Below are positions 29,051-57,809 of a stretch of 64,000 nucleotides of DNA, one piece after another. Location: contig JAFWLZ010000034.1 in the NCBI GenBank assembly GCA_017510835.1, forward strand, positions 607 through 64,606, written 5' to 3'. This stretch comes from Candidatus Saccharimonadota bacterium (GTDB lineage Bacteria; Patescibacteriota; Saccharimonadia; Saccharimonadales; Saccharimonadaceae). Both the position numbers and the translations under genes were made by a program. The notes below the pieces were generated by a model that saw only the letters and a list, made by a program, of their open reading frames with translations, made no database searches and was not told where the DNA came from. Positions within the stretch are counted from its first letter, which is position 1. Every line of letters starts with the position of its first letter.

Positions 29051-32000
29051 TTATGAGTTTGGCGTCCAAACGAGGATCATGTACTTATTGCCGTTTTCAT
29101 CGGTAAATTCCCTGAGCTCATACATGTATTCTGTTTGTGTCGCACCAGAGGATATTGCTACAGTTCTGCCGGTGACTCTACCGTCATAGAAGTTTATAAC
29201 GCCAGAATTATTTGTAATACCGACGCCGTTTCGAGAAGTATTATTAACGTTTGCATTGATTGCTGGATTCGTTGTCGATACGTCAGCTTGTTCTGTGCCG
29301 CGAGTATCAGGATTATCGTCTGGAACGCCCATCGTTATTGTGCCAGTGTTTGTATTGAATATACCGTAAACATTACCATTATTGAACGCTGTTATTTCCC
29401 CGCTTGGGAAGTTGATGGTGCCAGCATTTTGAATCATTTTAACTTGACGGCCCGTTGCAGCCCATTTAGAGGTATCGAGTGTAACAGTCGAATTATCAAT
29501 ATTGACTGAGCCTCTATTTTCGAAGAAGTCAATGTAAACATTCGTATCGCTAAGCGGAACTAGCGTTAAGCTAGAATTCTTAGCCGTAAAGGATGTGTTT
29601 GCTGGAATGGTATTGATAGTGTATTCGGTAGAGCTCGGTCTCGACTGATTATTGTGATAACGAGAAGTATGCTGGACATTGTCGAATATTAATTCGCCAG
29701 TACCACTCAGGTTGATGGAATTGCTAGTGTCTTCTTCGTCTATTGGCCCAGAAACGCTATCCTTAATAGTCGTCCGATTGTTTTGAACGGATATAGAGCC
29801 TTTCAGGACTGAATTCTGAACATCTACTGTTCCATTCTCTGAATAAATTGAATAGTATGAACCATAAAGAGTTGAGTTGTTTACTGTAGTCGCACCGCTC
29901 CCTTTATTATTGAGCGAGTATGCTTTCGCAACCGCCTCAATGCCATCGATATCGAGCGTACCATTATTCCTAAACGCAACGTATGCGCTATCAACATCAA
30001 CATTATGAACGGCCAATTCTGCGCCTTCATTGTTCGTTATTACCGAAGACCCTCCTTCGAGCGTGATTGTCGATGAGTCAATTTCGTGAGCACTGTTGAT
30101 AATACCGACCTTACCATTATTTACGATTGGATTATTACTCCAAGTGTCGTAACCATGCATATCGATAGTAATCACTTTTTCTGCCGGAATAGTAAGACTA
30201 TAGAACATATAGTTCTCACCAATAATATCGATAATATCATCCTCTAGCGCTGCATCTACTGCCGCCTGGAGCGTCTTATATCTCGTGCCAGCACTGCCGC
30301 CAATTTGTGCTACATCATAGCTAGCAACAAGATAGCATTCCTGGTAGGTGACTCCACCTTCGGTAACAGTATCTGAATGCATCGATGAATCATCGGCAAT
30401 AGTTTTGATTGCACTGCCTTCGAAAGCTTTTATTTCGCCCCTTAATGTGCCATCGTAAAAGTTAAACACGCCAGAAAGCGCATATATGCTACTTGTTATG
30501 ATCGGTTTAGTACGGTCAAGTGTGCCGTCATTGCTTCCGATGGTTGCCGGCGCCGACGTCTCAGTATAGGCGCCATACATACCAGCAATTGTACCACCGG
30601 TGATAGTATATTCTTTTCCATAAACACCATAAGATGTACCCGTCGACGCAATTGCAGTTATTGTGCCTCCCTGAATAATCGTATTTTTAGCCGCCGTAAC
30701 GCCCTTTGCTGCCTTTTTATCGGATTGAGCAGAGATATTTCCGCCGCTAATTGTGCCCGAGCCAAAGCTGACGCCGTATGCTTCACCATAATATTGGCTC
30801 TCAGCCGAGATAGTTCCACCCGTAATTGAACCGCCACCAGTTGCGGCATAAGAATTACCATAAAGAGAGCTTGCAGTAATTGTACCGCTGCTAATCGACA
30901 TGTTTGAGGAGCTAATGCCGGTAGCCGGACCATTTTTAGCACCAGCAGTAATCACCGCATTATCACTGATAGTCATATAGCCAGCTTGAGCGCCCTGGGC
31001 AGACGCGGAAGAGTCCGCACACTCCGTAGAAACGGAAATCGTAGCGTCATCCTCAATTGTAAGAGTGTTGCCGCTCACGCCAGTCACAGCACCGGCAGTA
31101 GATGTCGCCGCAACGGAAAAATTATTCTTCATGTGAATTACGCCATTTCCACAGTATATAGCAACGGTGCCAGCAGTAGCGCTATCTGCCGTAATTGAAC
31201 CATTATTAAGGTTTATTGTAGTAGGTTTTTCGTAATCTCCATCTACGCAGTAAACACCTGCATTAGTACTCGTAATCGTGCCGCCATTCATCGTTAGCGT
31301 CGAACCATATATGCTATGAATCGTACGATAAGAAGAAGATAAATTGCCCGAATTAATTGTCAAATCGGTATAGTTCTTAATTGCCGACGTTGATGAGCCA
31401 ACGCCAATGATGGCGCCAGTTTGTTCTTGGCTGCTATCTTGGATAATCATCGTGCTCTTATTAATAATTGGCTGCGAATAAGACAAAGTATGTCCGTTCA
31501 AATCAAGCGTAATGGTTTTTCCTTCCGGACTATCTGGATGGACCGCTTGTACTGTCGCATCCTCGATAACCGTGATTGTGCCGGAATCGCCAGTGATTGC
31601 ATTGTAAGCGTTTCCGAGCGAATTATATGTTGCGCCATCAACTTCTAGATAGTCGCTCGCTTCTACGAGCCAACAGTTCTCTTTATCGTCAATCGTTTCT
31701 TTATGATAAGTATAACCATCTGGAATAGAAGAAATGCTGTCAGGATAATATGCTTCTGTACCGCCTTTTAATACACCGTCATAGAAACTAAAGACGGCTC
31801 CTCGATCGTTATTATGCAAAGCATATTCGCCGCCCGTTATGCTTGGATTGTCGATATTTACTCTATCGCTATTATCGCCAATGGTTACTGGTGCAAGATC
31901 TGAGTATATACCATACTTTTTACCATTAATCGTGCCTTCTTTAATAATAATTCCGTTATTACTACCAAAGTTATATGCTTGAATACCATAGCTTGTCAGG

Positions 32001-35000
32001 CCGCGATCAGAATAGGCGCTAATCGTGCCGCCAGTAATAACAGGACTAATGTTTTGGGTTCCATAGTCAAAGAAGATGCCTTTCGTAGTCGAGTAATCTC
32101 CGTGTGCTGTAATTTGTCCGCCCGTCATCGAGAATTCGCGCGAATAATAGGTATAGATGCCAAAGACACTTCCACTATAGGCTTCCGCAGTAACTACGGC
32201 TCCGTCGCTTATCGACATGCCTGTAGTTTCAGCTCTAATTCCATAAACCGTCGCGTAAGTAGATTCATTATCACGTGACGTTATTGTGCCACCTTCCAAA
32301 ATCACCGTACCGCCCTTAGAATAAATGCCTTGAGTAAATGAAGCGTTATTTACCGCCAACGCGCTTATCGTAGCATTATCTTTAATAGTTAGAGTGCCTC
32401 CATTATTGTTGATAGCATACATTTGGCTTCTGGAGGACTGAAGATTGCTAACCACAGATACATCTACAGTATCTTTTATTGTAGTATTACACTGCGTATA
32501 TACCCCAGTCGTAGCAACATTATCTATATTCTCTGCAAATATCTTCGTGTTGCCGCCGATAGTAACAGTGGCTCTAGAGCTAGAACAATATACAACGTTA
32601 CTGGAGCTAGTAATCAGCGAATTATTAATAGTCATTGAACCATATTCGCCAGTATATCGAGCGTATCCGTTTATTGTGCTGTCGTCGATTGCCACGCTTC
32701 CGTTTCTCGACGAAGAAGAAATATTGCCCGTCACCGTAGTCGAGATAACCGATATCGAACCTGTGCCGGAAATAGCACTAGTATTAGTGTTCGTCAGTTC
32801 GCCGGTTTTTGCTTGACTACTATCAGTAAGAATAAGTGACCCACCACTCAAAATTGACTGCGTGGTGTTTAATTTATGCCCATTCAAATCAATAGTGACG
32901 GTTTTTCCTGATGGGCTATTTGGAATAGCAGCCTCCAAGTCGGCATCAGTAATTACTTTAACAGTGCCGGTATCGCCTGAAATTGCGTTATATGCATCCT
33001 CGAATGAGCTATATGTATTACCATCGACTTCTAAGAAGCCCGTCATTTCTACGAGCCAGCAGTTCTCTTTATCATCAATCGTTTCTTTATGATAGGTATA
33101 TCCGTCAGGAATAGCAGAAATCGCTCCTTCGCCAATTGCATAGGTTCCACCTTTGATTATTCCGTCAAAGAAATTAATTGAACTGCCGCTTAGGCCGAGA
33201 TTTCCGCCGATAATTTCTGGATGCTCGATATCAACATTGCCGTCATTGTCTCCGAGCTTAGTCGTCCCGCCACTAGCGAGAATGCCATAAGTAGTGCCTT
33301 CAAATTTGCCTGATGTAATTGTAATGTTAGAGCTAGCATTAACGCCGGCAGCAGTACCAGTTGTATTTGCAATTGCCGTCGCCGTAACTCCAGAAACAGT
33401 GCTAGCTCCGCTAGTATTGCTGATGCCGTACGCAGTACCACTATTCGTGTTTGCAGTAACCGTTCCGCCAGTAATCGTTGCCGTGTTTTCAATTCCTATT
33501 GCCGTTCCAGTATTGCTCGTCACATTAATTGTGCCGCCAGAAATCTTCTTTGCGGAAACACCAATTGCTGGCAGTTTTTTCTTATTAACGACAGTAATTG
33601 TGCCGCCACTGATTTCCCCGCCAGTCGCCTGAATGCCCTGCGCAGTACTAACATTTGCATAGTTGCCGTTGTTTTCAACATACAGCGTACCGCCAGACAT
33701 ATTTACAATCTGAGAATAGCCCACAGTTCCTTTTCCAGTCGATGAGCTGATGACTGAAACATCACCACCGGTTTGAGTAACATTCTTACCAAAGGAGAAC
33801 GCGCTGCTCCCCATACCATTAATCGTGATTGTGCCACCGTTAATATAGGTGTTTTTAGAGTTTGATGAATTATTGACAGCTGCCCCAGATAGCGGTCCAG
33901 CAGTGATTGTGCCGCCATTAATCGTGAGTTCAGCATTACAAGCAAATGATCGCTGAGATTTTATCGTAGCACCATCGTTAATCACGACCGTACCGCCATC
34001 AATGGCGCATGTTTCCCATCCTCTGCCAGTCGTCGTATCGATTGTACCACCACTAATTGTCGCCGTAGCTGTAGCTGTGTTCAAGATGTTGCCATAGATT
34101 GTTCCATTCGTCCATTCGAAGTCTGAAGTATCATTATATATAGCCTTTGGACCACTTCGATTCCCGACAATTGCAGAATCCGCATCGAGATCATAGCTAC
34201 CACCAGATTTAGTTTCCAGCGCATAACTGGTATTTGAATTTGTTACTATAGCATTGCGTAAAATTAGTTTACCGCCATTTTTTAAAGTCGTATTTGCATT
34301 TGCGCTAACAATCGTCATGTCACGAATAGTTAGATCTCCTTCATTATCCATCGTCTGCTCGGTTTTCAGCGAGCCAGATTCAGTAGAGCTATTTAGAATA
34401 GTAAAGTCGCCATTATTTGTAGCTACATTTTTGAAAACGACGTTGTATCCTGCTATGTCAAAGACAATCTCCGTATTTTCTGGGACTGTAATAGTATAGG
34501 CAGCATTAAAATCGCGCACAGCATATATCTGATAGCCAGTTTCCGCTGAGACGTTAATGTTATCTTGGAGATCGTAATAGAATACCTCGCCGCCAACAAT
34601 TGTCTTGGAGACAGCGTTATCGTTTGCTGAGAGCTCAACATGATGAATATCGCGCGCCTGAATATAGCTGACTAGTGGGTGATAGTGAATGTCGCCAATT
34701 TCTCCGGTCTGATGATAAAATGGAGTATCATTATAGCCACCATTAAGACCAATATCGCCTTCAAGATAGCCGTCGTAATAATTGAAGGTGCCGTTCTGAT
34801 TGAGACCAACAGTCGTGCCAATAAAGCGGACATAATCATTAACGACAATCGCCGCATTCTGGTCATCATAATCATTAATACCAACAGTGAGCGTGCCGTT
34901 GTTCGTGACAGCAATGCCGTTTGGATTATTAATCTCGCCATCAAGCACGGTAAGGTCGCCATTTACGGTATTCGTGAGTGAACCAGTGACGGTATGTCCG

Positions 35001-35968
35001 TCTAGGTTGAGTGTGACAGTTTTTTCATTCGTAACCACTTCCTCAGTATCGACGAGCAAAGTAATTATATCGTTCGCCTGCGCTTCATTATGAGCAGCCA
35101 TAATGGATGGATAAATTCTGCCGGTGCGCTCAATACGAGCAACTTGTGGCCCGGATTGTTCCCAATTTGCAACAAGCGAAGTATCACCGTTAATCGTTAT
35201 AGTTGAATCAGTGTAACTGCTACTGCCATTGAGCGTCCAGTCGACGAAATCATAGCCACTGCGCTCGATATCGGACAAATCTATCTCTGTACCCTTATCT
35301 ACCCTAGTAGTATATACTTCGCCGCTATCATTGAAGGTGCCGCCATTCGGATCAATCGAAACGTTGTACTGGTCAGCTGGCGGTTGCTCGCCCCAATAAG
35401 TTTGCATGCGAATAAAGATGTGGTATGTCGCTTCACTATACTCGCTAATATCTTTATCACAATCCGTACCGTCATCATTCTCGCAGTACTTGAGCTCTTT
35501 ACTCATATTCATGCCACAGTTCATTGTGACGGATTTAAAGAACGAGTTCGACTCGTCGCCTGGAGCTAACTGGTGCTTATAGTAATACCAGCCATCACCA
35601 CCATCTTCCCAGTCGGCCTGATTCTGGAAGTTGATGATAGCAATACTATCGCCATCTTTCTGGAGAGGCATATCTTCGCCCTCTTTGGAAAGCCAATATT
35701 CATCATACTTAAGACGAAGATTAACTGTCACACCTTCTTCATTTCTAGCGATTGCAGTCTTTGGGATTTCCTGGCATGGCTGCCAATCGTCCGGAGAATC
35801 AAATGTTTCGACAAAATCGATACGAGTCACCTCATCCACATGAAATAGATTGTCAAATATATGTGTACTTTGGTTAACAGCAATCGTTCCGCCGATTGCG
35901 AGGAACCCGACGACGCCGAAAATAATCGGCAAAATTTTCCGGGACCGTTTTTCTCTTGTTTTTTTCAT
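29051..35968 (-). CDS. giant surface protein (2305 aa): SipW-type signal/TasA-like N-module, Listeria-Bacteroides repeat, four beta-helix modules
   Basis: N-terminus LAIGGTIAVNQSTHIFDNLF...DFVETFDSPDDWQPCQEIPKTAIARNE..., then YNVSIDPNGGTF..GYDFVDWTL...LVANWE (Flg_new-type repeat). This is followed by long Gly/Thr/Asn-rich GGTI-type repeats. All antisense ORFs in this span are shadows. Confidence 0.8.
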   Translation of the reverse strand: MKKTREKRSRKILPIIFGVVGFLAIGGTIAVNQSTHIFDNLFHVDEVTRIDFVETFDSPDDWQPCQEIPKTAIARNEEGVTVNLRLKYDEYWLSKEGEDMPLQKDGDSIAIINFQNQADWEDGGDGWYYYKHQLAPGDESNSFFKSVTMNCGMNMSKELKYCENDDGTDCDKDISEYSEATYHIFIRMQTYWGEQPPADQYNVSIDPNGGTFNDSGEVYTTRVDKGTEIDLSDIERSGYDFVDWTLNGSSSYTDSTITINGDTSLVANWEQSGPQVARIERTGRIYPSIMAAHNEAQANDIITLLVDTEEVVTNEKTVTLNLDGHTVTGSLTNTVNGDLTVLDGEINNPNGIAVTNNGTLTVGINDYDDQNAAIVVNDYVRFIGTTVGLNQNGTFNYYDGYLEGDIGLNGGYNDTPFYHQTGEIGDIHYHPLVSYIQARDIHHVELSANDNAVSKTIVGGEVFYYDLQDNINVSAETGYQIYAVRDFNAAYTITVPENTEIVFDIAGYNVVFKNVATNNGDFTILNSSTESGSLKTEQTMDNEGDLTIRDMTIVSANANTTLKNGGKLILRNAIVTNSNTSYALETKSGGSYDLDADSAIVGNRSGPKAIYNDTSDFEWTNGTIYGNILNTATATATISGGTIDTTTGRGWETCAIDGGTVVINDGATIKSQRSFACNAELTINGGTITAGPLSGAAVNNSSNSKNTYINGGTITINGMGSSAFSFGKNVTQTGGDVSVISSSTGKGTVGYSQIVNMSGGTLYVENNGNYANVSTAQGIQATGGEISGGTITVVNKKKLPAIGVSAKKISGGTINVTSNTGTAIGIENTATITGGTVTANTNSGTAYGISNTSGASTVSGVTATAIANTTGTAAGVNASSNITITSGKFEGTTYGILASGGTTKLGDNDGNVDIEHPEIIGGNLGLSGSSINFFDGIIKGGTYAIGEGAISAIPDGYTYHKETIDDKENCWLVEMTGFLEVDGNTYSSFEDAYNAISGDTGTVKVITDADLEAAIPNSPSGKTVTIDLNGHKLNTTQSILSGGSLILTDSSQAKTGELTNTNTSAISGTGSISVISTTVTGNISSSSRNGSVAIDDSTINGYARYTGEYGSMTINNSLITSSSNVVYCSSSRATVTIGGNTKIFAENIDNVATTGVYTQCNTTIKDTVDVSVVSNLQSSRSQMYAINNNGGTLTIKDNATISALAVNNASFTQGIYSKGGTVILEGGTITSRDNESTYATVYGIRAETTGMSISDGAVVTAEAYSGSVFGIYTYYSREFSMTGGQITAHGDYSTTKGIFFDYGTQNISPVITGGTISAYSDRGLTSYGIQAYNFGSNNGIIIKEGTINGKKYGIYSDLAPVTIGDNSDRVNIDNPSITGGEYALHNNDRGAVFSFYDGVLKGGTEAYYPDSISSIPDGYTYHKETIDDKENCWLVEASDYLEVDGATYNSLGNAYNAITGDSGTITVIEDATVQAVHPDSPEGKTITLDLNGHTLSYSQPIINKSTMIIQDSSQEQTGAIIGVGSSTSAIKNYTDLTINSGNLSSSYRTIHSIYGSTLTMNGGTITSTNAGVYCVDGDYEKPTTINLNNGSITADSATAGTVAIYCGNGVIHMKNNFSVAATSTAGAVTGVSGNTLTIEDDATISVSTECADSSASAQGAQAGYMTISDNAVITAGAKNGPATGISSSNMSISSGTITASSLYGNSYAATGGGSITGGTISAESQYYGEAYGVSFGSGTISGGNISAQSDKKAAKGVTAAKNTIIQGGTITAIASTGTSYGVYGKEYTITGGTIAGMYGAYTETSAPATIGSNDGTLDRTKPIITSSIYALSGVFNFYDGTLRGEIKAFEGSAIKTIADDSSMHSDTVTEGGVTYQECYLVASYDVAQIGGSAGTRYKTLQAAVDAALEDDIIDIIGENYMFYSLTIPAEKVITIDMHGYDTWSNNPIVNNGKVGIINSAHEIDSSTITLEGGSSVITNNEGAELAVHNVDVDSAYVAFRNNGTLDIDGIEAVAKAYSLNNKGSGATTVNNSTLYGSYYSIYSENGTVDVQNSVLKGSISVQNNRTTIKDSVSGPIDEEDTSNSINLSGTGELIFDNVQHTSRYHNNQSRPSSTEYTINTIPANTSFTAKNSSLTLVPLSDTNVYIDFFENRGSVNIDNSTVTLDTSKWAATGRQVKMIQNAGTINFPSGEITAFNNGNVYGIFNTNTGTITMGVPDDNPDTRGTEQADVSTTNPAINANVNNTSRNGVGITNNSGVINFYDGRVTGRTVAISSGATQTEYMYELREFTDENGNKYMILVWTPNS
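30300..35150 (-). repeat. four degenerate tandem coding modules (about 1.3-2 kb each) inside the giant gene
   Basis: Each module opens with a header resembling VDG.TY.S...AYNAI.GD.G...VI.D........KT.T.DLNGH.L. Most close with F.DG..KGG......IPDGYTYHKETIDDKENCWLVE. The 68-nt segments 31661-31728 and 33047-33114 match at about 60 of 68 positions (offset 1386 bp). Confidence 0.6.
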
Positions 35969-40401: not shown

Positions 40402-42246
40402 TTAGTTATAGCCTTCCGCTTGGAGCTCGAACATCTGACGATAGCGACCATTCGCAGCAATAAGTTCGTCATGTGTGCCGGCTTCGATAATGCGGCCTTT
40501 TTCTAGAACGACGATAGATTTTGCTTTGCGTACGGTCGAAAAGCGGTGCGAAATTATAACGGTAGTTTTGTCTTTTTGACGAGCGAGAATATTCTGAAAA
40601 ATCTTATACTCTGCTTCAGCATCAATCGCCGCAGTAGGTTCATCAAGGAGAAGAACATTCGGTGAACGATAAAATGCACGCGCGATGCTCAGTCGCTGCC
40701 ATTGGCCACCAGACAAATCGGTCGTATATTTATTGTCGAAATCTTTCGACAAAATTTGGTCGAGTCCTTTTTCGTATCTCGCAGCAAGATTATCTAAATC
40801 GGCATCGCGAAGAGCAGCCTTTACGTTAGCAGTATTGTATTTCTTGCGAACGTCACCAAACCATACATTTTCGCCAAGTGTCGCAAACTCGTAGCGCGCA
40901 TATTCCTGGAAGAGTGCGCCGAGTTGCTTGAGATAACTTTCGCGCTCAATATGTTCGAATGGTTCGTCATTAACTAGAATCACGCCTTCCGATGGTTCGT
41001 AAGCACCAATCAGAAGTTTAATGAGTGTAGTTTTGCCGGCGCCATTTTCGCCGACAATTGCAAGCGATTGCCCAGGCTCAAGCGTGAAGCTAACATTATC
41101 AAGGGCTTTTGTTTTCGAATTTGGATAACTAAACGAAACGTTCTTGAATTCAATTTTCGGCGTGCTCGTTATTTTGACATTGCCGTTTGGCTTACTAGGC
41201 GTTTCCATAAATTCCATATAGTCTGTCGCATTAACGAGATTTTCATTTACGGCAGTAATACTATTAAAGAAACTCGAAATATTGTTATTTAGCTGGTTAA
41301 GGAGCGTGCGGATAGTTAAGAATTGACCAATTTCAAGCTTTTCGAGAATAATTTCGACCGCAACGAAAATTAACACACCAAAACTTGCGAGCGATTCAAG
41401 CATATCTGCACCAAAACTTGGTAACAAGAAACGACGACGTTCAATAATGTCCTGTTCTTGACCGTGGCGACGCGCCTTAACCATTTTATGGACGAGGTGT
41501 GACGAAAGACCGTTCATCTCAATTTCAAGCGCATTGTTTGAATTAGTAATTTTTTGCTCTATTGCCCATGCGATACGACGGTCGCGCGTATATTCGCGCC
41601 AGTTGCGTCGTTCAATCGCAGAGAGACGAAGATTAAGAAAAGCCGAAGGAATTGCAGCAAGAAACATCACGAGCGTAATTAGCGGAGAGATTGTTAGTGT
41701 CGCAATGACAACAGAAATCAGGCTAGTGACTGCGGATATAACGCCCACAATACTCGACGAAACATAAGTTATTGAATTGCCGAAATCTCGGACGCGCTCA
41801 AATTTATCTGCAAATTCTTTGCTTTCACGCAACTTGAGTGGAATTTGAATATACTTTGTCGCAATCTGCTCACCGACATAGATGAAGACATCTTGCACGG
41901 TCGTCATCGAAAGGTAACTATTGAGCGCGCGAAGCAAAACGTTCAAGACTTCGATGCCGAGCAAAAATGCAGCAATGATAATAAATGGAGTAAAATCACG
42001 CGTAGCAATAGCGCCAACAATGCTAGTCACTGCGGCACCAGAAAGAATCGCGGTTACAGTCGGAATTACAGAATTGTAAATACGATAAAATGCGAAAAAG
42101 AAACTTTTCGGGCCGACTGCTTTGCGATAAATCCGCGTGACATACAAGATTGACTTTAGTGAAATACGAGGGTAGTTCCGTTTAGTACGACGCTCGCAGC
42201 GGCGTTTAGCACGTTCCGTTTTACGACTGCGAGCAGGCTCAGCCAT
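40402..42246 (-). CDS. ABC exporter, fused permease/ATPase (MsbA-like)
   Basis: Six-TM domain, then Walker A GENGAGKTT, signature LSGGQWQR and Walker B LLLDEPTAAID. Confidence 0.85.
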   Translation of the reverse strand: MAEPARSRKTERAKRRCERRTKRNYPRISLKSILYVTRIYRKAVGPKSFFFAFYRIYNSVIPTVTAILSGAAVTSIVGAIATRDFTPFIIIAAFLLGIEVLNVLLRALNSYLSMTTVQDVFIYVGEQIATKYIQIPLKLRESKEFADKFERVRDFGNSITYVSSSIVGVISAVTSLISVVIATLTISPLITLVMFLAAIPSAFLNLRLSAIERRNWREYTRDRRIAWAIEQKITNSNNALEIEMNGLSSHLVHKMVKARRHGQEQDIIERRRFLLPSFGADMLESLASFGVLIFVAVEIILEKLEIGQFLTIRTLLNQLNNNISSFFNSITAVNENLVNATDYMEFMETPSKPNGNVKITSTPKIEFKNVSFSYPNSKTKALDNVSFTLEPGQSLAIVGENGAGKTTLIKLLIGAYEPSEGVILVNDEPFEHIERESYLKQLGALFQEYARYEFATLGENVWFGDVRKKYNTANVKAALRDADLDNLAARYEKGLDQILSKDFDNKYTTDLSGGQWQRLSIARAFYRSPNVLLLDEPTAAIDAEAEYKIFQNILARQKDKTTVIISHRFSTVRKAKSIVVLEKGRIIEAGTHDELIAANGRYRQMFELQAEGYN

Positions 42247-44066
42247 TACTCCACCGTCACAGATTTAGCAAGGTTGCGTGGTTGGTCAACATCATTGCCA
42301 CGATTAACGGCAACATAGTAAGCAAACAATTGCTGGAGAGTATTGAGCAAGATTGGCGTGAGGAGTTTAATCGGACTTTCGATTCGGATAATATCATCTG
42401 CTTCAATGTCGGCTTTGGAATTTGTAAGGACAATGGTTTTGCCGCCGCGGGCACGTACTTCATGAAGGCCGCCACAAGATTTATCAAAGAGCCAGTTATC
42501 GAGAATAGTGAAGACTTCAAAGAAACGATCATCAACTAGCGCAATTGGACCATGCTTGAGTTCCCCGCTCGCATAACCTTCAGCGTGAATATAGGAAATT
42601 TCCTTAAGCTTGAGCGCACCTTCGAGCGCAATCGGAAAGGCCGTGTCGCGACCGAGATAAAGTGCGTGGTCGAACTTGGAGTATTTCTTTGCGAGACTCT
42701 TCATCGTGTCGTGATTATCATTTAGGACTTTTTCAATTTCCTTTGGCAAGATTTCTAGCTCACGCGTAAACTCTGCAATCAATTTTGGATCGCCACCGTG
42801 ATATTCAGCAATCATGCCAGCAAACATCAACATTGCGACAACCTGAGCAGTAAATGCCTTAGTCGAAGCGACCGAAATTTCTGGGCCAGCGTGAACGTAA
42901 GTGCCGCCATCGACTTCGCGAGCAATAGTAGAGCCAACGACGTTTACGATACCGAGCGTCTTGACGCCGCGCTTTTTGATTTCGCGAAGACATGCCAAAG
43001 TGTCAGCCGTTTCGCCGGACTGAGAAACGATCAACGCGACCGAATCCTTAGGAAGATGGAGGGAGCGATAACGATATTCGCTCGCAATCACAACTTCAGT
43101 CGTAAGATCCGGAACGAGTTGCTCCATATAATAGGAAGCAAGGAGGCCGGCATAGTACGCAGTGCCGCAACCGACGATTACAACGTGATGAATGTCGCGC
43201 ATTTCTTTTTCAGTTAGATTCGGACCACCAAGATGCATCTTCCCCGCCTTTGGATCGATGCGGCCGCTAAGCGTATTGTGTAGAGTAGTGGCCTGTTCCA
43301 TGATTTCCTTGAGTAGGAAATGATCGTAGCCGCCTTTTTGAATTTGGGCGAGATCACCTTCAATAGTTTCCGGTTTGCTGTCGAGATGCTTCAGACCGAG
43401 CGTGAATACCTCGGCTCCTTTATCAGTACAAACCGCGAGTTCGCCGTCATTGAGATAAATCGCTTCACGAGTGTAGCCAAGAAGCGCAGATGCATCGGAG
43501 GCAATAAGCGTTTCGTCTTTGCCGAGGCCAATGATGAGCGGCGAGCCGAGACGAGCGACAATAATCGTGCCTGGTTCTTTCGGCGAAAAAACAGCAATGC
43601 CATATGTACCACGAATGCGTTTGAGTGATTTTGCGACGGCATCTTTTAGCGATACGCCATCTTTGTAATTGCTATCAATGAGTGCGGCGAGTACTTCAGT
43701 ATCAGTATCGGAGGCGAAATCATAATCCTTTAGCTCAGCTTTGATTTCTTTGTAGTTCTCAATGATACCATTGTGAACCATATAGATGTTGCCAACATGA
43801 TGTGGGTGAGCATTCGTCTCAGTAACGCCACCGTGGGTAGCCCAGCGAGTGTGACCGATACCAAGATGACCAGTTTGCGGTTCAGATTCAAGTGCTTTTG
43901 AGAGCTCAGCAATTTTACCGACCGAGCGAGTTAGATGTGCTTTATCGTCATCATCAAGCGTTGCGATTCCGGCCGAATCATAGCCGCGATATTCCAATCT
44001 TCTAAGACCGCCGACTAAGACATCTTGTGCCTTTTTCCCACCTACATAACCAACAATTCCACACAT
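42246..44066 (-). CDS. glmS: glutamine--fructose-6-phosphate aminotransferase
   Basis: MCGIVGYVG Ntn start, two SIS domains and the C-terminal ...AKSVTVE. Confidence 0.93.
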   Translation of the reverse strand: MCGIVGYVGGKKAQDVLVGGLRRLEYRGYDSAGIATLDDDDKAHLTRSVGKIAELSKALESEPQTGHLGIGHTRWATHGGVTETNAHPHHVGNIYMVHNGIIENYKEIKAELKDYDFASDTDTEVLAALIDSNYKDGVSLKDAVAKSLKRIRGTYGIAVFSPKEPGTIIVARLGSPLIIGLGKDETLIASDASALLGYTREAIYLNDGELAVCTDKGAEVFTLGLKHLDSKPETIEGDLAQIQKGGYDHFLLKEIMEQATTLHNTLSGRIDPKAGKMHLGGPNLTEKEMRDIHHVVIVGCGTAYYAGLLASYYMEQLVPDLTTEVVIASEYRYRSLHLPKDSVALIVSQSGETADTLACLREIKKRGVKTLGIVNVVGSTIAREVDGGTYVHAGPEISVASTKAFTAQVVAMLMFAGMIAEYHGGDPKLIAEFTRELEILPKEIEKVLNDNHDTMKSLAKKYSKFDHALYLGRDTAFPIALEGALKLKEISYIHAEGYASGELKHGPIALVDDRFFEVFTILDNWLFDKSCGGLHEVRARGGKTIVLTNSKADIEADDIIRIESPIKLLTPILLNTLQQLFAYYVAVNRGNDVDQPRNLAKSVTVE

Positions 44067-44116
44067 ATTTCCTCCGTGTTTAATAGTTATATTCTAGCAA
44101 AGAAATGGGCGATTGT

Positions 44117-45922
44117 TTAGCGACGTTTTGTCGCGACACAGAAGAGGCCGGCCGCAATTAATGCAGTACCGCCAAGCGTAATCGCAAACGGGACGAGATC
44201 ACGATCGAGCGTGCTCGGATTCTTCGGAATATTGTAATAGTAAGTAACTGTGACGTCGGAATTCATGATGCCCGTCGCATTGTCCGGAACAGCAATCAGC
44301 TGGTAGCCGGTCGGCAAATCGGAAGCCTTGCTCGTAGTATATTCGGAACCATGATTCTGCTCAGTCGCGATAGTGTCGGATATTTCTTTTCCGGTTTCTT
44401 TGTCGATATGACGGACTGTAAGCTTATGATAGATGTTCGTAATCGTATCGTTCGTAGTCTTGGTGCGAGGAGTAGTTATGCCTGTATAGGTATAAGAGTT
44501 AGTCGCGTGATTCGGAATCTGCTGAGTTGTAATCGTATTTTTTGCGGTGACCGGAATGACGATTTTATACGTTGCGTTATAGAAATCTGCAGTTGCGAGG
44601 TAGGCCGCCTTAGCGCTGACAGTAATGTCGCGACCGCTAATTACGACGTCAAATTTATCCGTCACATCAGTACTGCCGCGATAAACTTTGACCGCGGTAT
44701 ACACAGGTAGGATTAAGTTAGCGTCAATGTTGTCCGAAATTTTGAAGCTTGTATAGTTGTGACTTTCATTAATGCTCGAGTATTTCGAATAGAGCGAAGC
44801 AAAAGTCAAGATGTCATTCGACGTGCTAAATACGTTTGGAATGCGCTGTTTGATGATGTAGTTAAATTTGCTGCCAGTCGTGGCACGGTTTTCAGTCTTT
44901 CCGTCTTCTTCGACATATTTAACTGGATCCGGCGTGTCATAGGCGGATGGCGAACCAAAGAAATAAGTCGTGCCAGCAGTGGATGCCGCATAGGTGAATG
45001 TATAGCTAGAATTCGCCATACTGGTAACCGTGGCGTAATATGAAGTTCCCCAGTGAATGCCATTATAAGCTCCTGAGTAGCCAGCATCTCCTAAGTTGCG
45101 AACAGCGAGGCCATTTTGCGATTCGTACATTTCCGGCATAGATGGGCTAGTATTGTTTTTGTTGTAGTAGAAGGTAGTTTTACTGGCACTAGCCGGGGTA
45201 ACGCGTGCACCCTCGTCGCCATTAAAGTAATCTGCAGTCGTATAGTGAGCATCATTGGGAACGTCAAAATCGTAAGCCAAATAGGTTAGGCGCGTAAGGC
45301 CAGCCGGGGTGCCAGAAAGAGTACTGTCGCTAAAACTTCCCTTCTTAATATATTGGACAGTGAAGTCGCCACTGGCAAAATGTGCATTTAGCCAGAACAT
45401 GATTGGATCGCCGGAGCCTAGATTATTAGTACCATCACCGCCATTACAAGGATCATAATCTGGCGTAGTCGGAACATCTGCGCTAGAACCGCATGTTGCC
45501 GAACGCTTAGAAATCGAGAAGAATTTCTCATAATCGGTTATAGGATTACCATCGGCATCTTTAAGCTCATCCCAATATTTAACATTATTAACTTTCCAAA
45601 TCACATCGACAGGATTGCCGTTATTGTCGGTTGCAGAGGAATTAGAAATAAGCATGACAAATTGCTTACCTGGCTGAACAGGATAATTGCCACTGAATGT
45701 GCCAGTGCGCGTATCATCTGCACCGTCTTTTTTAACAATTAATTGTGTATTGTTTGTGTAGTAGATTCGAGAGGAGGCGAATTCTGTATCGATGAGCGGT
45801 TGAACAGCACTATAGTCCATATATGATGAGACTTGGGCGCCTGAATTTTGATTAAAGATAATTAATGGCGTTAATGCCGCTGCGCCAATAACCGCAGCAA
45901 TTGCAATGTGTTTGATTTTCAC
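44117..45922 (-). CDS. surface adhesin with MucBP domain and C-terminal hydrophobic anchor (601 aa, GTG start)
   Basis: Signal IAIAAVIGAAALTPLIIF. MucBP-like HKLTVRHIDKETGKEISD...GSEYTTSK..LPTGYQLIAVPDNATG...VTVTYYY. The C-terminal LVPFAITLGGTALIAAGLFCVATKRR resembles a sorting signal but has no LPXTG. Confidence 0.65.
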   Translation of the reverse strand: MKIKHIAIAAVIGAAALTPLIIFNQNSGAQVSSYMDYSAVQPLIDTEFASSRIYYTNNTQLIVKKDGADDTRTGTFSGNYPVQPGKQFVMLISNSSATDNNGNPVDVIWKVNNVKYWDELKDADGNPITDYEKFFSISKRSATCGSSADVPTTPDYDPCNGGDGTNNLGSGDPIMFWLNAHFASGDFTVQYIKKGSFSDSTLSGTPAGLTRLTYLAYDFDVPNDAHYTTADYFNGDEGARVTPASASKTTFYYNKNNTSPSMPEMYESQNGLAVRNLGDAGYSGAYNGIHWGTSYYATVTSMANSSYTFTYAASTAGTTYFFGSPSAYDTPDPVKYVEEDGKTENRATTGSKFNYIIKQRIPNVFSTSNDILTFASLYSKYSSINESHNYTSFKISDNIDANLILPVYTAVKVYRGSTDVTDKFDVVISGRDITVSAKAAYLATADFYNATYKIVIPVTAKNTITTQQIPNHATNSYTYTGITTPRTKTTNDTITNIYHKLTVRHIDKETGKEISDTIATEQNHGSEYTTSKASDLPTGYQLIAVPDNATGIMNSDVTVTYYYNIPKNPSTLDRDLVPFAITLGGTALIAAGLFCVATKRR

Positions 45923-56220: not shown

Positions 56221-57012
56221 CTACAACTCGGCTGGCTCGTAAGGTTGCTGGTAGTGCTCAGCCCAGTGGCGGTACTGCAAAATAAATAGCTCGCGCATCG
56301 CCGCGGCAATGACCGGGCTAGTAATAATCGTGGATGTGCCGTTTTCGCTGTAGTCGATGAAGGCAATCTTGTCGCCATAAATATCAATTTCGACTGGCGT
56401 TTTATAAGCGTCGCGCGGAGCCATGACGCGATGGAATAGATATTCTTCGTCGCTTGCGACATTCTTGCGGCCATCTGGATAATCAGGCGTAATCGCATAA
56501 GTATGAATCTTTTTCTTTACGCGGGCTTCGCGGTAGCGATTAATGAAATCAAAAATACCAGCATCCGCCGAAGAACGGATGAGATAAATCTTATCCGGCG
56601 AGACACGAAGAGTATCCTTAAAGATTTCCTTCACGCCCTCTTCGCCAAAGTAGGTCTTGGCGCCAGGAATTGAGCTATGGGCATAGAAAATATCCGTGAG
56701 CACTGAAATATTATTCTTAATATTTTGCTCATCATTTATCGCGGCACGGCGACGCTTCTCAGCGAGAAGCTCGAGATTCGACGGCGGAAGCGCAATATAA
56801 CTAGCGGTCTTGCCCTTTTCGATCTTTTCAGCAAGGTTTAATTCGGATAGTTTATCCAACAGCGCGTAAGTATTCGTACGAGTCTCGCCCGTAATCTCAG
56901 AAATCTTCGTCGGCGTCAAAGCACCGTTGCGCAAAAGCGCCAAATAAGTCTTCGCCTGCGGCTCAGTGAGGCCAGCACGCTCAATAATATGAACATCATT
57001 TTCGTTTAGCAT
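56221..57012 (-). CDS. TrmB-family transcriptional regulator
   Basis: Trimmed to ATG 57012. GLTEPQAKTYLALLRNGALTPTKISEITGETRTNTYALLDKL is the TrmB winged HTH. Confidence 0.7.
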   Translation of the reverse strand: MLNENDVHIIERAGLTEPQAKTYLALLRNGALTPTKISEITGETRTNTYALLDKLSELNLAEKIEKGKTASYIALPPSNLELLAEKRRRAAINDEQNIKNNISVLTDIFYAHSSIPGAKTYFGEEGVKEIFKDTLRVSPDKIYLIRSSADAGIFDFINRYREARVKKKIHTYAITPDYPDGRKNVASDEEYLFHRVMAPRDAYKTPVEIDIYGDKIAFIDYSENGTSTIITSPVIAAAMRELFILQYRHWAEHYQQPYEPAEL

Positions 57013-57018
57013 GACTAG

Positions 57019-57047
57019 ATTATAGCGCCTCAAGCGCGTTTTGTCAA
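57019..57047 (-). promoter_or_regulatory. consensus promoter giving a leaderless trmB-like mRNA
   Basis: On the minus strand: TTGACA (57042-57047), exactly 17 nt, TATAAT (57019-57024), 6 nt, ATG (57010-57012). Confidence 0.7.
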
Positions 57048-57110
57048 CGATGATTGACAATTTTTTGCGCATTTCTACCCCTGTTATTTATTAGCTTGCG
57101 TCATGCTTTA

Positions 57111-57139
57111 TTGACATTTTTATTAATATAAGTTATAAT
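57111..57139 (+). promoter_or_regulatory. consensus promoter of the csx3-like transcript
   Basis: TTGACA (57111-57116), 17 nt, TATAAT (57134-57139). Confidence 0.7.
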
Positions 57140-57145
57140 GCTTGC

Positions 57146-57346
57146 AGACATTCAAAAACGATTGTCTCGTAAATTTATAGAATCCTTATCTATGAAGCTC
57201 GGAACGCCTTTCTTGGCGGTTCGAGGAGGCGATTTTACTGGGATTTGAGATCGTCTGCTTGAGCCGCCAAGCTTGTAACTCGTTGACCCATGTATGTAGT
57301 AGAAACAGTATGAATGATGTATGTAGAAGGTATGGAGGTAAATGCC
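57146..57346 (+). promoter_or_regulatory. long structured 5' leader (candidate cis-regulatory RNA)
   Basis: About 200 nt separate the predicted TSS from the GTG start. Nested helices: CTTGGCGG (57212-57219)/CCGCCAAG (57264-57271) enclosing AGGCGAT (57227-57233)/ATCGTCT (57250-57256). The same CCGCCAAG strand can instead pair downstream of the ORF. Confidence 0.35.
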
Positions 57347-57664
57347 GTGAAGTATAATGTAAATTTTGAAAAAATCAACGACACTACAGTAAAGGCACAG
57401 ATAAGCTTCGGAGATCCGGGAACAAATGGTGAGATCCTAACAGAACTCAGGGAGCGCGAGGACGACCTCAAGCGAACTGTGGGCTACGGGAAATTGCTAG
57501 TTGTGAACGGACCGGCGAGTCTGCCGGTAGCCATGTTTTTAGCTCACTTAGTTGGACATAATTATGGCGCCGTTGCCTGCTTTGACCCGAAGATGGCTGG
57601 TTATGTGGTAGCGATATCACATGACCCCGATTACGCAGTCGGTGACGTAATCACGCTCGAATAG
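57347..57664 (+). CDS. Csx3/Crn3-like protein (105 aa)
   Basis: Start is GTG 57347 with GGAGGT 7 nt upstream; the ORF-track ATG 57314 lacks an SD. KLLVVNGPASLPVAMFLAHLVGHNYGAVACFDPKMAGYVVAISHDPDYAVGDVITLE matches the remembered Csx3 signature: GP..., LAH, H, (Y/F)DP(R/K)(L/M)G, VV..SH, GDVI. Confidence 0.5.
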   Translation: MKYNVNFEKINDTTVKAQISFGDPGTNGEILTELREREDDLKRTVGYGKLLVVNGPASLPVAMFLAHLVGHNYGAVACFDPKMAGYVVAISHDPDYAVGDVITLE

Positions 57665-57779
57665 CCACACCGAAGGCTTGGCGGCCCCGAATAGCTTCAT
57701 TTCGGATTGCACCTTTAAAAACTAAATAGAAAAAGGTACCCATGTGGTCGGCTCTTGCACAAGTTGCAACGAGTAACAA

Positions 57780-57809
57780 CACCGCGAGAATGGAAGCGGT
57801 GTTTTTTTT
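57780..57809. terminator. intrinsic terminator shared with the convergent hydrolase gene
   Basis: CACCGC-GAGAATGGAA-GCGGTG hairpin followed by TTTTTTTT. Confidence 0.75.

What the first reader, a model, noticed from the sequence alone, without database searches (positions are those of the whole stretch)
57347..57664. Orphan Csx3/Crn3-like ring-nuclease homologue with no CRISPR-Cas context
The 105-aa ORF ends with KLLVVNGPASLPVAMFLAHLVGHNYGAVACFDPKMAGYVVAISHDPDYAVGDVITLE. As I remember the Csx3 family (for example A. fulgidus AF1864: ..ISGRGPIWLHCFLAHKYHHTPFVAVYDPRLGAVVVQSHSELREGDVI..), the same ordered landmarks occur here: G-P, LAH, a His four residues later, (Y/F)DP(R/K)(L/M)G, VV..SH and GDVI. 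These include the His/Asp positions discussed for metal binding and catalysis.

Csx3/Crn3 proteins are Mn-dependent cyclic tetra-adenylate ring nucleases/RNA deadenylases that normally accompany type III CRISPR-Cas. This window contains no cas gene, CRISPR array, CARF/SAVED effector or nucleotide cyclase. The gene is a monocistronic unit with its own consensus promoter and terminator, wedged between a glycan-synthesis cluster and housekeeping genes.

In a probable obligate episymbiont, a stand-alone cOA-degrading enzyme could do three things. It could quench host or phage-triggered cOA signalling, act on another oligoadenylate, or represent a new housekeeping use of the fold.
Basis: partly seen in the sequence, partly recalled or inferred. 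Interest (0 to 1): 0.7.

Follow-up and report, generated by a model that had tools for sequence, protein, structure and literature searches.

The report
Orphan ring-nuclease gene in Saccharibacteria
A tiny parasitic bacterium carries an intact copy of a CRISPR "off-switch" enzyme (Csx3/Crn3) with no CRISPR system next to it. Close relatives hold a different, unrelated off-switch enzyme (Crn4b-like) or nothing at the same spot, which suggests the lineage benefits from destroying cyclic oligoadenylate alarm signals whose source is unknown.

Summary
Window 57347-57664 (+) encodes a 105-aa Csx3/Crn3-family protein: Pfam PF09620 scores above its cutoff, and an AF2 model (pLDDT 97) matches A. fulgidus Csx3 (TM 0.71-0.79). 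The catalytic-site residues are kept and dN/dS is 0.12-0.17.

The gene has a perfect sigma-70 promoter and a terminator. It sits beside a divergently transcribed TrmB-like regulator, in a Candidatus Saccharibacteria MAG that NCBI already annotates as Csx3. The 64-kb window holds no cas gene, CRISPR array, cyclase or CARF/SAVED gene.

The same Csx3 clade lies next to Cas10 in 27 of 40 non-CPR loci (cyanobacteria, Poribacteria and others). It does so in 0 of 35 CPR loci, where a TrmB-like gene, and often a P-loop gene, is the linked neighbour.

Close relatives keep the same flanks, promoter and leader hairpin, but the slot holds csx3, a truncated csx3, a Crn4b-like ring nuclease, or nothing. Two unrelated ring-nuclease families at one slot argue for selection on cOA degradation rather than a housekeeping role.

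The cOA source is unresolved. An unlinked cyclase elsewhere in the genome cannot be excluded. I rate this a new variant of a known kind, of moderately high interest.

The parts
57347..57664 (+). csx3/crn3 coding sequence. It is 105 aa from the GTG at 57347. Alternative upstream starts are 57314 (116 aa) and 57332 (110 aa, as in NCBI MBR3322890.1).
   Evidence: Pfam PF09620 scores above its cutoff. The AF2 model matches AfCsx3. Homologues begin at MKYNV.
57334..57338 (+). Shine-Dalgarno GGAGG, 8 nt before the GTG start.
   Evidence: Read directly from the sequence.
57111..57139 (+). csx3 promoter, TTGACA-17-TATAAT, 12 of 12 consensus positions.
   Evidence: It is conserved in L001, L002, L004, L097, L103 and L104.
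57146..57346 (+). 5' leader of about 200 nt. It has a short hairpin at the 5' end (AGACA..TGTCT).
   Evidence: fold z = -3.2. There is no Rfam match.
57212..57271 (+). 60-nt leader hairpin with 22-nt arms. Its 3' end is the upstream boundary of the exchangeable cargo.
   Evidence: Arm changes between relatives are mostly G.U to G-C or A-U.
57665..57690 (+). Conserved downstream boundary motif CACACCGAnGGCTTGGCGGCC. GCTTGGCGGC at 57676-57685 is the inverted repeat of GCCGCCAAGC at 57263-57272.
   Evidence: It is also conserved in L097, where the cargo gene is different.
57778..57809 (+). Intrinsic terminator: 8-bp G+C-rich stem, 10-nt loop, T8 run. It is shared with the convergent abhydrolase gene.
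56221..57012 (-). TrmB-like transcriptional regulator, 263 aa from the ATG at 57012 (the ORF extends to 57072). It has a winged HTH, a coiled coil and a PLD-like C-terminal domain.
   Evidence: Foldseek finds TrmBL2 (5box) at E=1e-14. It is a conserved neighbour of csx3 in 19 of 35 CPR loci.
57019..57047 (-). Promoter of the TrmB-like gene, TTGACA-17-TATAAT, 12 of 12. It ends 7 nt before the ATG at 57012, so the mRNA is probably leaderless.
57041..57060. Conserved palindrome TTGTCAA-N6-TTGACAA between the divergent promoters. It is a candidate operator.
   Evidence: These columns are invariant. A function as operator is inferred.

Best explanation
The gene encodes an intact, expressed Csx3/Crn3-type ring nuclease.

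Mechanism, by homology with A. fulgidus Csx3: the protein forms dimers that stack head to tail around cyclic tetra-adenylate (cA4). The 'Asp face' of one dimer is D80 and K82 here. The 'His face' of the next dimer is H67, H71 and H92 here. Together they form a shared Mn2+-dependent active site that cuts cA4 into linear A2-P.

Context: in this Saccharibacteria lineage the gene is not part of a CRISPR locus. It is the cargo of a small accessory slot. A perfect promoter, divergent from a TrmB-like regulator gene, drives a leader with a conserved hairpin, then the cargo, then a conserved boundary motif and a terminator. In sibling genomes the same slot carries a Crn4b-like ring nuclease, a truncated csx3, or no gene.

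The selected function is therefore removal of cyclic oligoadenylates, probably under TrmB-type transcriptional control.

Shown here: family membership, fold, residue conservation, purifying selection, promoter and terminator, absence of linked cas genes, and slot polymorphism.

Inferred: enzymatic activity, regulation by the TrmB-like protein, and the origin of the cOA (own unlinked cyclase, or host- or phage-derived).
For: Family and fold.

Catalytic residues: their roles in AfCsx3 come from PMC7371418. Equivalents are invariant in the clade and kept in 35 of 37 CPR members.

Selection: dN/dS is 0.12 against L001 and 0.17 against L002.

Expression signals.

Clade context: the same clade is genuinely type III-associated outside CPR, with Cas10 in 27 of 40 loci, plus WYL regulator, P-loop and HD_4 neighbours.

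Orphan status in CPR: 0 of 35 loci have Cas10 (Fisher p=8e-11). The window itself holds none.

Slot polymorphism with conserved flanks:
- csx3 in the window, L001 and L002.
- Truncated csx3 in L004.
- A 111-aa Crn4b-like protein in L097 and L098. It matches PDB 9r7b Crn4b at E=1.1e-8 over 108 of 111 residues and keeps the LTPH and GRIIGC motifs.
- Empty in L103 and L104.

Crn4 is a proven broad-spectrum ring nuclease, and Crn4b is also found on phages and plasmids (PMC12830947).
Against: - No member of this bacterial Csx3 clade has been assayed. Synechocystis Slr7080 is called only 'putative'.
- AfCsx3 Arg71 is Lys here. The second His aligns with H61 rather than H60.
- TIGR02579 scores below its equivalog cutoff.
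- Only 64 kb of an approximately 1-Mb genome is visible, so a distant type III-B or other cyclase cannot be excluded. Some Saccharibacteria have III-B systems.
- No cOA source or cOA-activated effector was identified for this organism.
- Regulation by the TrmB-like protein rests only on divergent arrangement and conserved palindromes.
Confidence: 0.62

Rival explanations
1. Ordinary accessory gene acting in trans. The genome, or most genomes with the slot, encodes a type III CRISPR-Cas system or another cOA-producing system elsewhere. Csx3 is its off-switch, simply unlinked.
For: - Some Saccharibacteria encode type III-B systems (PMC10746230).
- Ring nucleases are sometimes found in loci without effectors and may act in trans (PMC12409355).
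- Other CPR loci carry what looks like a cOA-sensing module: a P-loop protein fused to a degenerate Csx3 domain, plus a Crn4b-like gene and HD_4. That implies an endogenous signal.
Against: - 0 of 35 CPR loci have Cas10 within about 10 kb, against 27 of 40 non-CPR loci.
- Only 7.9% of 318 Saccharibacteria genomes have any CRISPR-Cas.
- No cas, cyclase or CARF gene lies in the 64-kb window.
Confidence: 0.3
2. Counter-defence enzyme. The episymbiont uses the ring nuclease to destroy cOA generated by its bacterial host's, or a co-infecting phage-triggered, type III CRISPR or CBASS response. This would be analogous to viral AcrIII-1 and Crn4b anti-CRISPRs.
For: - Presence/absence and family swapping at one slot is typical of conflict genes.
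- Crn4b occurs on phages and plasmids as a presumed Acr.
- Csx3 relatives occur on 8 IMG/VR contigs, one next to a DarB-like antirestriction gene.
- CPR rarely have their own CRISPR-Cas.
Against: - There is no secretion signal or delivery route, and no evidence that host cOA reaches the epibiont.
- The IMG/VR contigs could not be confirmed as viral.
- There is no hit in 50,697 cultured phage genomes.
- The idea is purely inferential.
Confidence: 0.22
3. A function other than cOA cleavage. Examples are Mn-dependent deadenylation or short oligo(A) RNA turnover, or a cA4 or RNA sensor acting with the TrmB-like regulator, as a housekeeping role in a reduced genome.
For: - AfCsx3 was first described as a deadenylating exoribonuclease (Yan 2015, cited).
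- In some CPR proteins the Csx3 domain is catalytically degenerate and fused to a P-loop domain, so it acts as a sensor rather than an enzyme.
Against: - AfCsx3 binds cA4 about 100-fold tighter than poly(A)-tailed RNA.
- The slot is empty in close relatives, so the gene is dispensable.
- It is replaced by an unrelated protein whose only known activity is ring-nuclease activity.
- The catalytic residues are intact here.
Confidence: 0.08
4. Decaying remnant of a lost type III locus, with no current function.
For: One relative (L004) has an N-terminally truncated copy. Others have an empty slot.
Against: - dN/dS is 0.12-0.17.
- All catalytic positions are intact.
- The promoter is a perfect consensus, and an SD and a terminator are present.
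- The gene is conserved down to 69-72% amino-acid identity with unchanged synteny.
Confidence: 0.04

Closest known systems
Crn3/Csx3 ring nuclease (A. fulgidus AF1864; PDB 3WZG, 3WZI, 6YUD; Pfam PF09620)
   Same: Same fold (TM 0.71-0.79) and same size of about 100 aa. It keeps equivalents of G45, I49 (Leu), H57, D69 and H80, plus a second His on the same helix. The Pfam score is above the cutoff. Bacterial members of the same clade sit beside Cas10.
   Different: Only 24-26% identity. Arg71 is Lys and Arg46 is Pro. The second His is at i+4 (aligned to H61) rather than i+3. It scores below the TIGR02579 equivalog cutoff. There is no type III locus nearby, and it is paired with a TrmB-like regulator.
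Cyanobacterial type III accessory module: Csx3, Csx3-AAA (Csx3'), HTH-WYL regulator (TIGR03985) and an HD protein (Shah 2019; Athukoralage 2020)
   Same: The architecture is the same: a regulator divergent from csx3, a P-loop 'AAA/kinase-like' gene adjacent or fused, and often an HD_4 gene. CPR loci share the P-loop (16 of 35) and HD_4 (3 of 35) neighbours.
   Different: In CPR the regulator is TrmB-like instead of WYL, and Cas10 and the RAMP genes are absent. The window lineage has also lost the P-loop and HD genes.
Crn4b ring nuclease (PDB 9R7B; Chi et al. 2025)
   Same: A Crn4b-like protein occupies the same slot in sibling genomes. Both are small stand-alone cOA phosphodiesterase families.
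   Different: The fold is unrelated. Crn4 has broad specificity (cA3, cA4, cA6). It is not present in this window.
AcrIII-1 / Crn2 (DUF1874) viral ring nucleases
   Same: A ring nuclease encoded away from any type III locus, presumably to neutralise cOA made by someone else's system.
   Different: The fold is different. AcrIII-1 is carried on viruses and plasmids. The gene here is chromosomal, between core genes of a cellular episymbiont.

Membership tests
Csx3/Crn3 (PF09620 / TIGR02579) | Profile match above the curated threshold | tested here: met
   Pfam PF09620 scores 34.7 bits against a cutoff of 21. PADLOC Csx3 models score E=1e-15. The stricter NCBIfam equivalog TIGR02579 scores 33.4 bits against 55.4 and is not met.
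Csx3/Crn3 (PF09620 / TIGR02579) | Csx3 fold (distorted Rossmann/STAS-like beta-alpha-beta fold) | tested here: met
   The AF2 model has pLDDT 96.9. Foldseek's top 9 hits are all AfCsx3 chains, with probability 1.00 and TM 0.68-0.79.
Csx3/Crn3 (PF09620 / TIGR02579) | 'Asp face' residues D69 and R71, and cA4-contact residues G45 and I49 | tested here: inconclusive
   D80 and G55 are invariant and L59 is conservative. R71 is replaced by K82 in every member of this clade, including the Cas10-linked ones. The effect on catalysis is unknown.
Csx3/Crn3 (PF09620 / TIGR02579) | 'His face' residues H57, H60 and H80 | tested here: inconclusive
   H67 (=H57) and H92 (=H80) are invariant. The invariant H71 aligns with H61, one residue off H60, because of a 1-residue indel. 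No residue-level structural superposition was available.
Csx3/Crn3 (PF09620 / TIGR02579) | Genomic association with type III CRISPR-Cas | tested here: not met
   None in the window. 0 of 35 CPR loci have it, against 27 of 40 non-CPR loci of the same clade. The rest of the genome is not visible.
Csx3/Crn3 (PF09620 / TIGR02579) | Mn2+-dependent cA4 cleavage by cA4-induced tetramerisation | not testable with these tools
   This needs biochemistry. The mechanism is known only for the A. fulgidus and M. mazei enzymes.
Anti-CRISPR ring nucleases on mobile elements (AcrIII-1-like usage) | Encoded on a virus, plasmid or other mobile element | tested here: not met
   The gene is chromosomal, between Dus/abhydrolase and glycosyltransferase genes with conserved synteny. 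There is no hit in INPHARED phages. The 8 IMG/VR contigs carrying relatives could not be verified as viral.
TrmB-family regulator (neighbouring gene) | N-terminal TrmB winged HTH, coiled coil and C-terminal PLD-like/effector domain | tested here: met
   PF01978 at E=8.5e-11. The AF2 model has pLDDT 93. Foldseek finds TrmBL2 5box at E=1e-14 and TrmB 3qph at E=2e-10. No CARF or SAVED domain is present.
Crn4b (alternative cargo in L097/L098) | Sequence similarity to Crn4b with the conserved Thr/His (LTPH) and C-terminal Arg | tested here: met
   phmmer against PDB 9r7b gives E=1.1e-8 over residues 1-108. The NLTPH and GRIIGC(K)R motifs align. The conserved residues are listed in PMC12830947.

The most novel reading that the evidence does not exclude
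Saccharibacteria, and CPR bacteria more widely, maintain a chromosomal, TrmB-controlled 'ring-nuclease slot'. Its cargo is exchanged between Crn3, Crn4b and empty at a conserved hairpin boundary. The slot would serve as a counter-defence, or as a Cas10-independent signalling component, that degrades cyclic oligoadenylates produced by the host bacterium or during phage attack. That would be the first cellular, non-viral use of anti-CRISPR-type ring nucleases in an inter-bacterial parasitic lifestyle.
Probability: 0.2. Interest if true: 0.9.

Novelty: new variant of a known kind. Interest (0 to 1): 0.62.

Why it matters
Ring nucleases are understood as off-switches inside type III CRISPR loci, or as viral anti-CRISPRs. 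Here an intact Crn3 sits in a cellular genome of a lineage that rarely has CRISPR-Cas. It is uncoupled from Cas10 across dozens of CPR lineages. At this very slot it is interchangeable with an unrelated ring nuclease, Crn4b-like.

This implies one of two things. Either cyclic-oligoadenylate signalling exists in CPR bacteria from an unrecognised source, or episymbionts need to neutralise cOA made by hosts or phages. Either would open a new angle on how ultrasmall parasites interact with host immunity.

The proposal is directly testable with purified protein, with existing type III reporter systems, and with cultivable Saccharibacteria-Actinomyces pairs. The conserved hairpin-bounded cargo exchange may also point to an undescribed cassette-exchange mechanism.

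No paper in the searchable corpus mentions Csx3 together with CPR, Patescibacteria or Saccharibacteria.

Tried and rejected
- CRISPR arrays in the window: TRF and a k-mer array finder found none.
- Rfam on the 5' leader: only a chance snoRNA hit at E=6.
- Leader hairpin as a dispersed repeat: it is a single copy in the window.
- TrmB-like C-terminal domain as a CARF/SAVED-type cOA sensor: rejected. The model matches TrmBL2/TrmB with a PLD-like domain.
- Nature of the P-loop neighbour (cluster c1): Pfam and NCBIfam give nothing specific, and the PDB profile search shows only generic Walker-A similarity.
- Csx3 in cultured phages: no hit. Plasmid hits are only the known cyanobacterial CRISPR plasmids.
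- Viral nature of the IMG/VR contigs carrying relatives: PHROGs gave almost no hits, so this is unresolved.
- The weak 'Cas10a/Cas3' PADLOC hits in the window: traced to the HD domain of one RNase Y-like protein at 6834-8351.
- Pseudogene hypothesis: rejected by dN/dS and residue conservation.
- Literature: Makarova 2020 (CARF census) and Brown 2020 (JBC Csx3) are not in the held library. I therefore cannot exclude that orphan CPR Csx3 genes are mentioned there.

Full report
**1. The observation**

The longest ORF at the site is 57314-57664 (+), 116 aa. Homologues begin at MKYNV.

The protein matches Pfam Cas_csx3 (PF09620) at E=1.6e-8 and 34.7 bits, above the 21-bit gathering score. It matches five PADLOC Csx3 models, down to E=1e-15. 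It scores 33.4 bits on NCBIfam TIGR02579, below that model's equivalog cutoff of 55.4.

Sequence search against the PDB finds only A. fulgidus Csx3. The single sequence gives E=0.06 and a 51-sequence profile gives 9e-5.

An AlphaFold2 model built on that alignment is very confident, with pLDDT 96.9 and pTM 0.87. Foldseek ranks nine AfCsx3 chains first, with probability 1.00 and TM 0.68-0.79. The Csx3-like domain of Cat1 follows, then STAS/anti-sigma antagonists. That is the neighbourhood expected for Csx3.

**2. Active-site comparison**

For AfCsx3 the literature defines two faces:
- a 'D69 face', made of D69 and R71 plus main-chain contacts from G45 and I49;
- an 'H60 face', made of H57, H60 and H80.

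These faces come together between two dimers that sandwich cA4. H60A and D69A are each inactive but complement each other. Catalysis needs Mn2+ (PMC7371418).

In the window protein (105-aa numbering) the equivalents are:

| Window | AfCsx3 |
|---|---|
| G55 | G45 |
| L59 | I49 |
| H67 | H57 |
| D80 | D69 |
| K82 | R71 |
| H92 | H80 |

An invariant H71 aligns with H61, one residue after H60, because of a one-residue indel.

The Lys and the i+4 His are found in every member of the clade, including those next to Cas10. They are clade traits and not signs of decay.

dN/dS is 0.12 against L001 and 0.17 against L002.

**3. Expression signals and neighbours**

A perfect TTGACA-17-TATAAT lies at 57111-57139 (+). 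A second perfect promoter on the minus strand (57047-57019) serves the divergent gene.

That gene, 56221-57012, is a TrmB-family regulator (PF01978). Its AF2 model (pLDDT 93) matches TrmBL2/TrmB. It has a winged HTH, a coiled coil and a PLD-like C-terminal domain, and no CARF domain.

The csx3 leader is about 200 nt and contains a 60-nt hairpin at 57212-57271. No Rfam family matches it.

An intrinsic terminator lies at 57778-57809.

The flanks are glycosyltransferases on one side and abhydrolase plus Dus on the other.

Exact protein look-up identifies the source as a Candidatus Saccharibacteria MAG. NCBI already names the product 'CRISPR-associated protein Csx3' (MBR3322890.1).

**4. No CRISPR-Cas in the window**

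- There are no arrays.
- tblastn found no match to 26 clusters of neighbour proteins from related loci: the type III cas and accessory genes plus the WYL regulator, HD_4 and P-loop genes. The only hits were to csx3 itself, from P-loop proteins that carry a fused Csx3 domain.
- A PADLOC scan of 51 window proteins gave only Csx3, weak HD-domain hits from one RNase Y-like protein (6834-8351) and several unassigned non-cas hits (mad3, mad8, RmrA, AriA and others; see 'noticed in passing').

**5. The family elsewhere**

The protein database holds about 125 close clusters.

A scan of one genome per GTDB species found 143 species, and I retrieved 80 loci. I clustered all neighbours and annotated the clusters.

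Outside CPR the hits come from cyanobacteria, Poribacteria, Entotheonella, Beggiatoaceae, Acidobacteria and Planctomycetes. There the gene lies directly beside type III-A, III-B or III-D operons. Cas10 is present in 27 of 40 loci, and CRISPR arrays in 8. The usual neighbours are:
- a divergent HTH-WYL regulator (TIGR03985);
- an adjacent or fused ~195-aa P-loop protein, the known 'Csx3-AAA / Csx3'' partner (PMC6546367; PMC7371418);
- often an HD_4 protein.

In 35 CPR loci (Saccharibacteria, Paceibacterota, Kazan, Gracilibacteria and others) no Cas10 or array lies within about 10 kb (Fisher p=8e-11). A TrmB-like gene is present in 19 of 35 CPR loci against 0 of 40 non-CPR loci. The P-loop gene is present in 16 of 35. 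The catalytic residues are kept in 35 of 37 CPR sequences.

An NJ tree shows the CPR sequences as several deep groups rather than recent transfers from cyanobacteria.

**6. The slot is polymorphic, and the alternative cargo is another ring nuclease**

Relatives with TrmB-like proteins 75-98% identical to the window's keep the order Dus, abhydrolase, [slot], TrmB, GT4. They also keep a nearly identical promoter region and the leader hairpin. The slot contents differ:

| Locus | Slot content |
|---|---|
| window, L001, L002 | csx3 |
| L004 | csx3 with the first ~26 codons replaced by read-through of the hairpin |
| L097, L098 | an unrelated 111-aa ORF |
| L103 | ~125 nt of non-coding sequence |
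| L104 | nothing; the hairpin is followed directly by a terminator |

The 111-aa protein has no Pfam hit. It matches PDB 9R7B, Crn4b, at E=1.1e-8 over 108 residues. The family's LTPH and C-terminal GRIIGC-R motifs align.

Crn4 is a recently described ring nuclease with a new fold. It cleaves cA3, cA4 and cA6. Crn4b also occurs on phages and plasmids as a presumed anti-CRISPR (PMC12830947).

Two unrelated ring-nuclease families at one conserved, regulated slot, together with empty alleles, is the strongest evidence here. It indicates that the selected activity is cOA degradation. It also shows that the gene is an accessory, conflict-type gene and not a housekeeping one.

**7. Wider CPR modules**

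The Crn4b-like family is abundant in Saccharibacteria, with at least 274 clusters.

In L107-L112 it precedes three genes:
- a 489-aa protein made of the P-loop domain plus a Csx3 domain whose catalytic residues are lost, which makes it a likely sensor;
- an HD_4 gene;
- a MYG1-like gene.

Related 445-aa and 757-aa fusions lie next to TrmB-like genes in L101 and L105.

CPR genomes therefore hold the accessory part of the cyanobacterial type III neighbourhood: regulator, Csx3 domain, P-loop, HD and a ring nuclease. They lack the Cas10 complex beside it.

The window lineage is the minimal version, TrmB plus ring nuclease. The 64 kb contains no P-loop, HD_4 or Crn4 homologue.

**8. Interpretation**

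With confidence of about 0.6, I conclude that the gene is a functional Crn3-type ring nuclease. It is expressed from a TrmB-controlled accessory slot and acts by the AfCsx3 mechanism.

The origin of its substrate is open. The candidate roles are:
- An unlinked endogenous cyclase or type III-B system, about 0.3. Some Saccharibacteria have III-B, but only 7.9% have any CRISPR-Cas.
- Counter-defence against host- or phage-triggered cOA signalling, about 0.2.
- A role other than cOA cleavage, about 0.1.
- A decaying remnant, which is unlikely.

**9. Novelty**

The protein family is known and the gene is already annotated as Csx3. Three things are absent from the searchable literature, where no paper combines Csx3 with CPR terms:
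- the CPR-wide uncoupling from Cas10;
- the TrmB pairing;
- the Crn3/Crn4b/empty slot.

Surveys of ring nucleases looked only within 6 kb of type III loci and in cultured phages, where no Crn3 was found. Makarova 2020 and Brown 2020 could not be read.

I rate this a new variant of a known kind, with interest 0.62.

Noticed in passing
window 57212-57272 and 57665-57690; L097, L103, L104, L004: The exchangeable cargo is bounded upstream by the 3' end of a conserved 60-nt hairpin (..GAGCCGCCAAG). It is bounded downstream by CACACCGAnGGCTTGGCGGCC, a 10-nt inverted repeat of the hairpin arm. Three different junctions start exactly at the hairpin end: the Crn4b-like cargo, the truncated csx3 and the empty slot. 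This could be a site-specific cassette-exchange site, or simply the edges of functional RNA elements. No recombinase was seen nearby.
   Followed up: partly
L104 3745-3900 (reverse strand): In the empty-slot relative, the perfect promoter, the leader and a partly degenerate hairpin are followed directly by a terminator. A non-coding RNA of about 130 nt would still be made, so the leader may have a function of its own.
   Followed up: no
L004 4979-5296: Protein P0006 is identical to intact P0005 from residue ~26 onward. Its N-terminus is a translation of the leader hairpin. This is a ~150-nt deletion variant, either a likely pseudogene or an assembly artefact.
   Followed up: partly
L107-L112 (e.g. 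L107 6001-9665); L101 6816-8153; L105 2054-4884: Saccharibacteria operon: a Crn4b-like gene (113 aa), a 489-aa P-loop protein with a catalytically degenerate Csx3 domain, an HD_4 gene and a MYG1-like exonuclease gene. Related 445-aa and 757-aa fusions lie next to TrmB-like genes. It looks like a cOA-sensing module without Cas10.
   Followed up: partly
L007, L011, L040, L075, L082, L085 (e.g. L040 5133-10830): In several CPR loci csx3 is followed by a bpMoxR AAA+ gene, a VWA gene and a ~600-aa unknown gene, forming a MoxR-vWA ternary conflict-system-like set. HicAB is nearby in L007.
   Followed up: no
L089-L096 (IMG/VR contigs); L093 817-4443: Eight IMG/VR contigs carry Csx3 relatives. L089-L091 group with the window lineage in the NJ tree and consist of many small co-directional ORFs without PHROG hits. 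L093 carries a DarB-like antirestriction methylase-helicase near its Csx3. No Crn3 has been reported in cultured phages.
   Followed up: partly
window 57012-57047: The -10 element of the TrmB-like gene ends 7 nt before the ATG at 57012, so the mRNA is probably leaderless. The longer 283-aa ORF start at 57072 would lie upstream of the gene's own promoter.
   Followed up: partly
window, whole (51 proteins): PADLOC reported one window protein matching mad3 (E=4e-31). Others matched mad8, RmrA and AriA models. I did not identify which genes these are.
   Followed up: no
window 29051-35968 and 40402-45922: There is a 2305-aa ORF and three tandem ~600-aa ORFs on the minus strand. They were not examined beyond the ORF list.
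   Followed up: no
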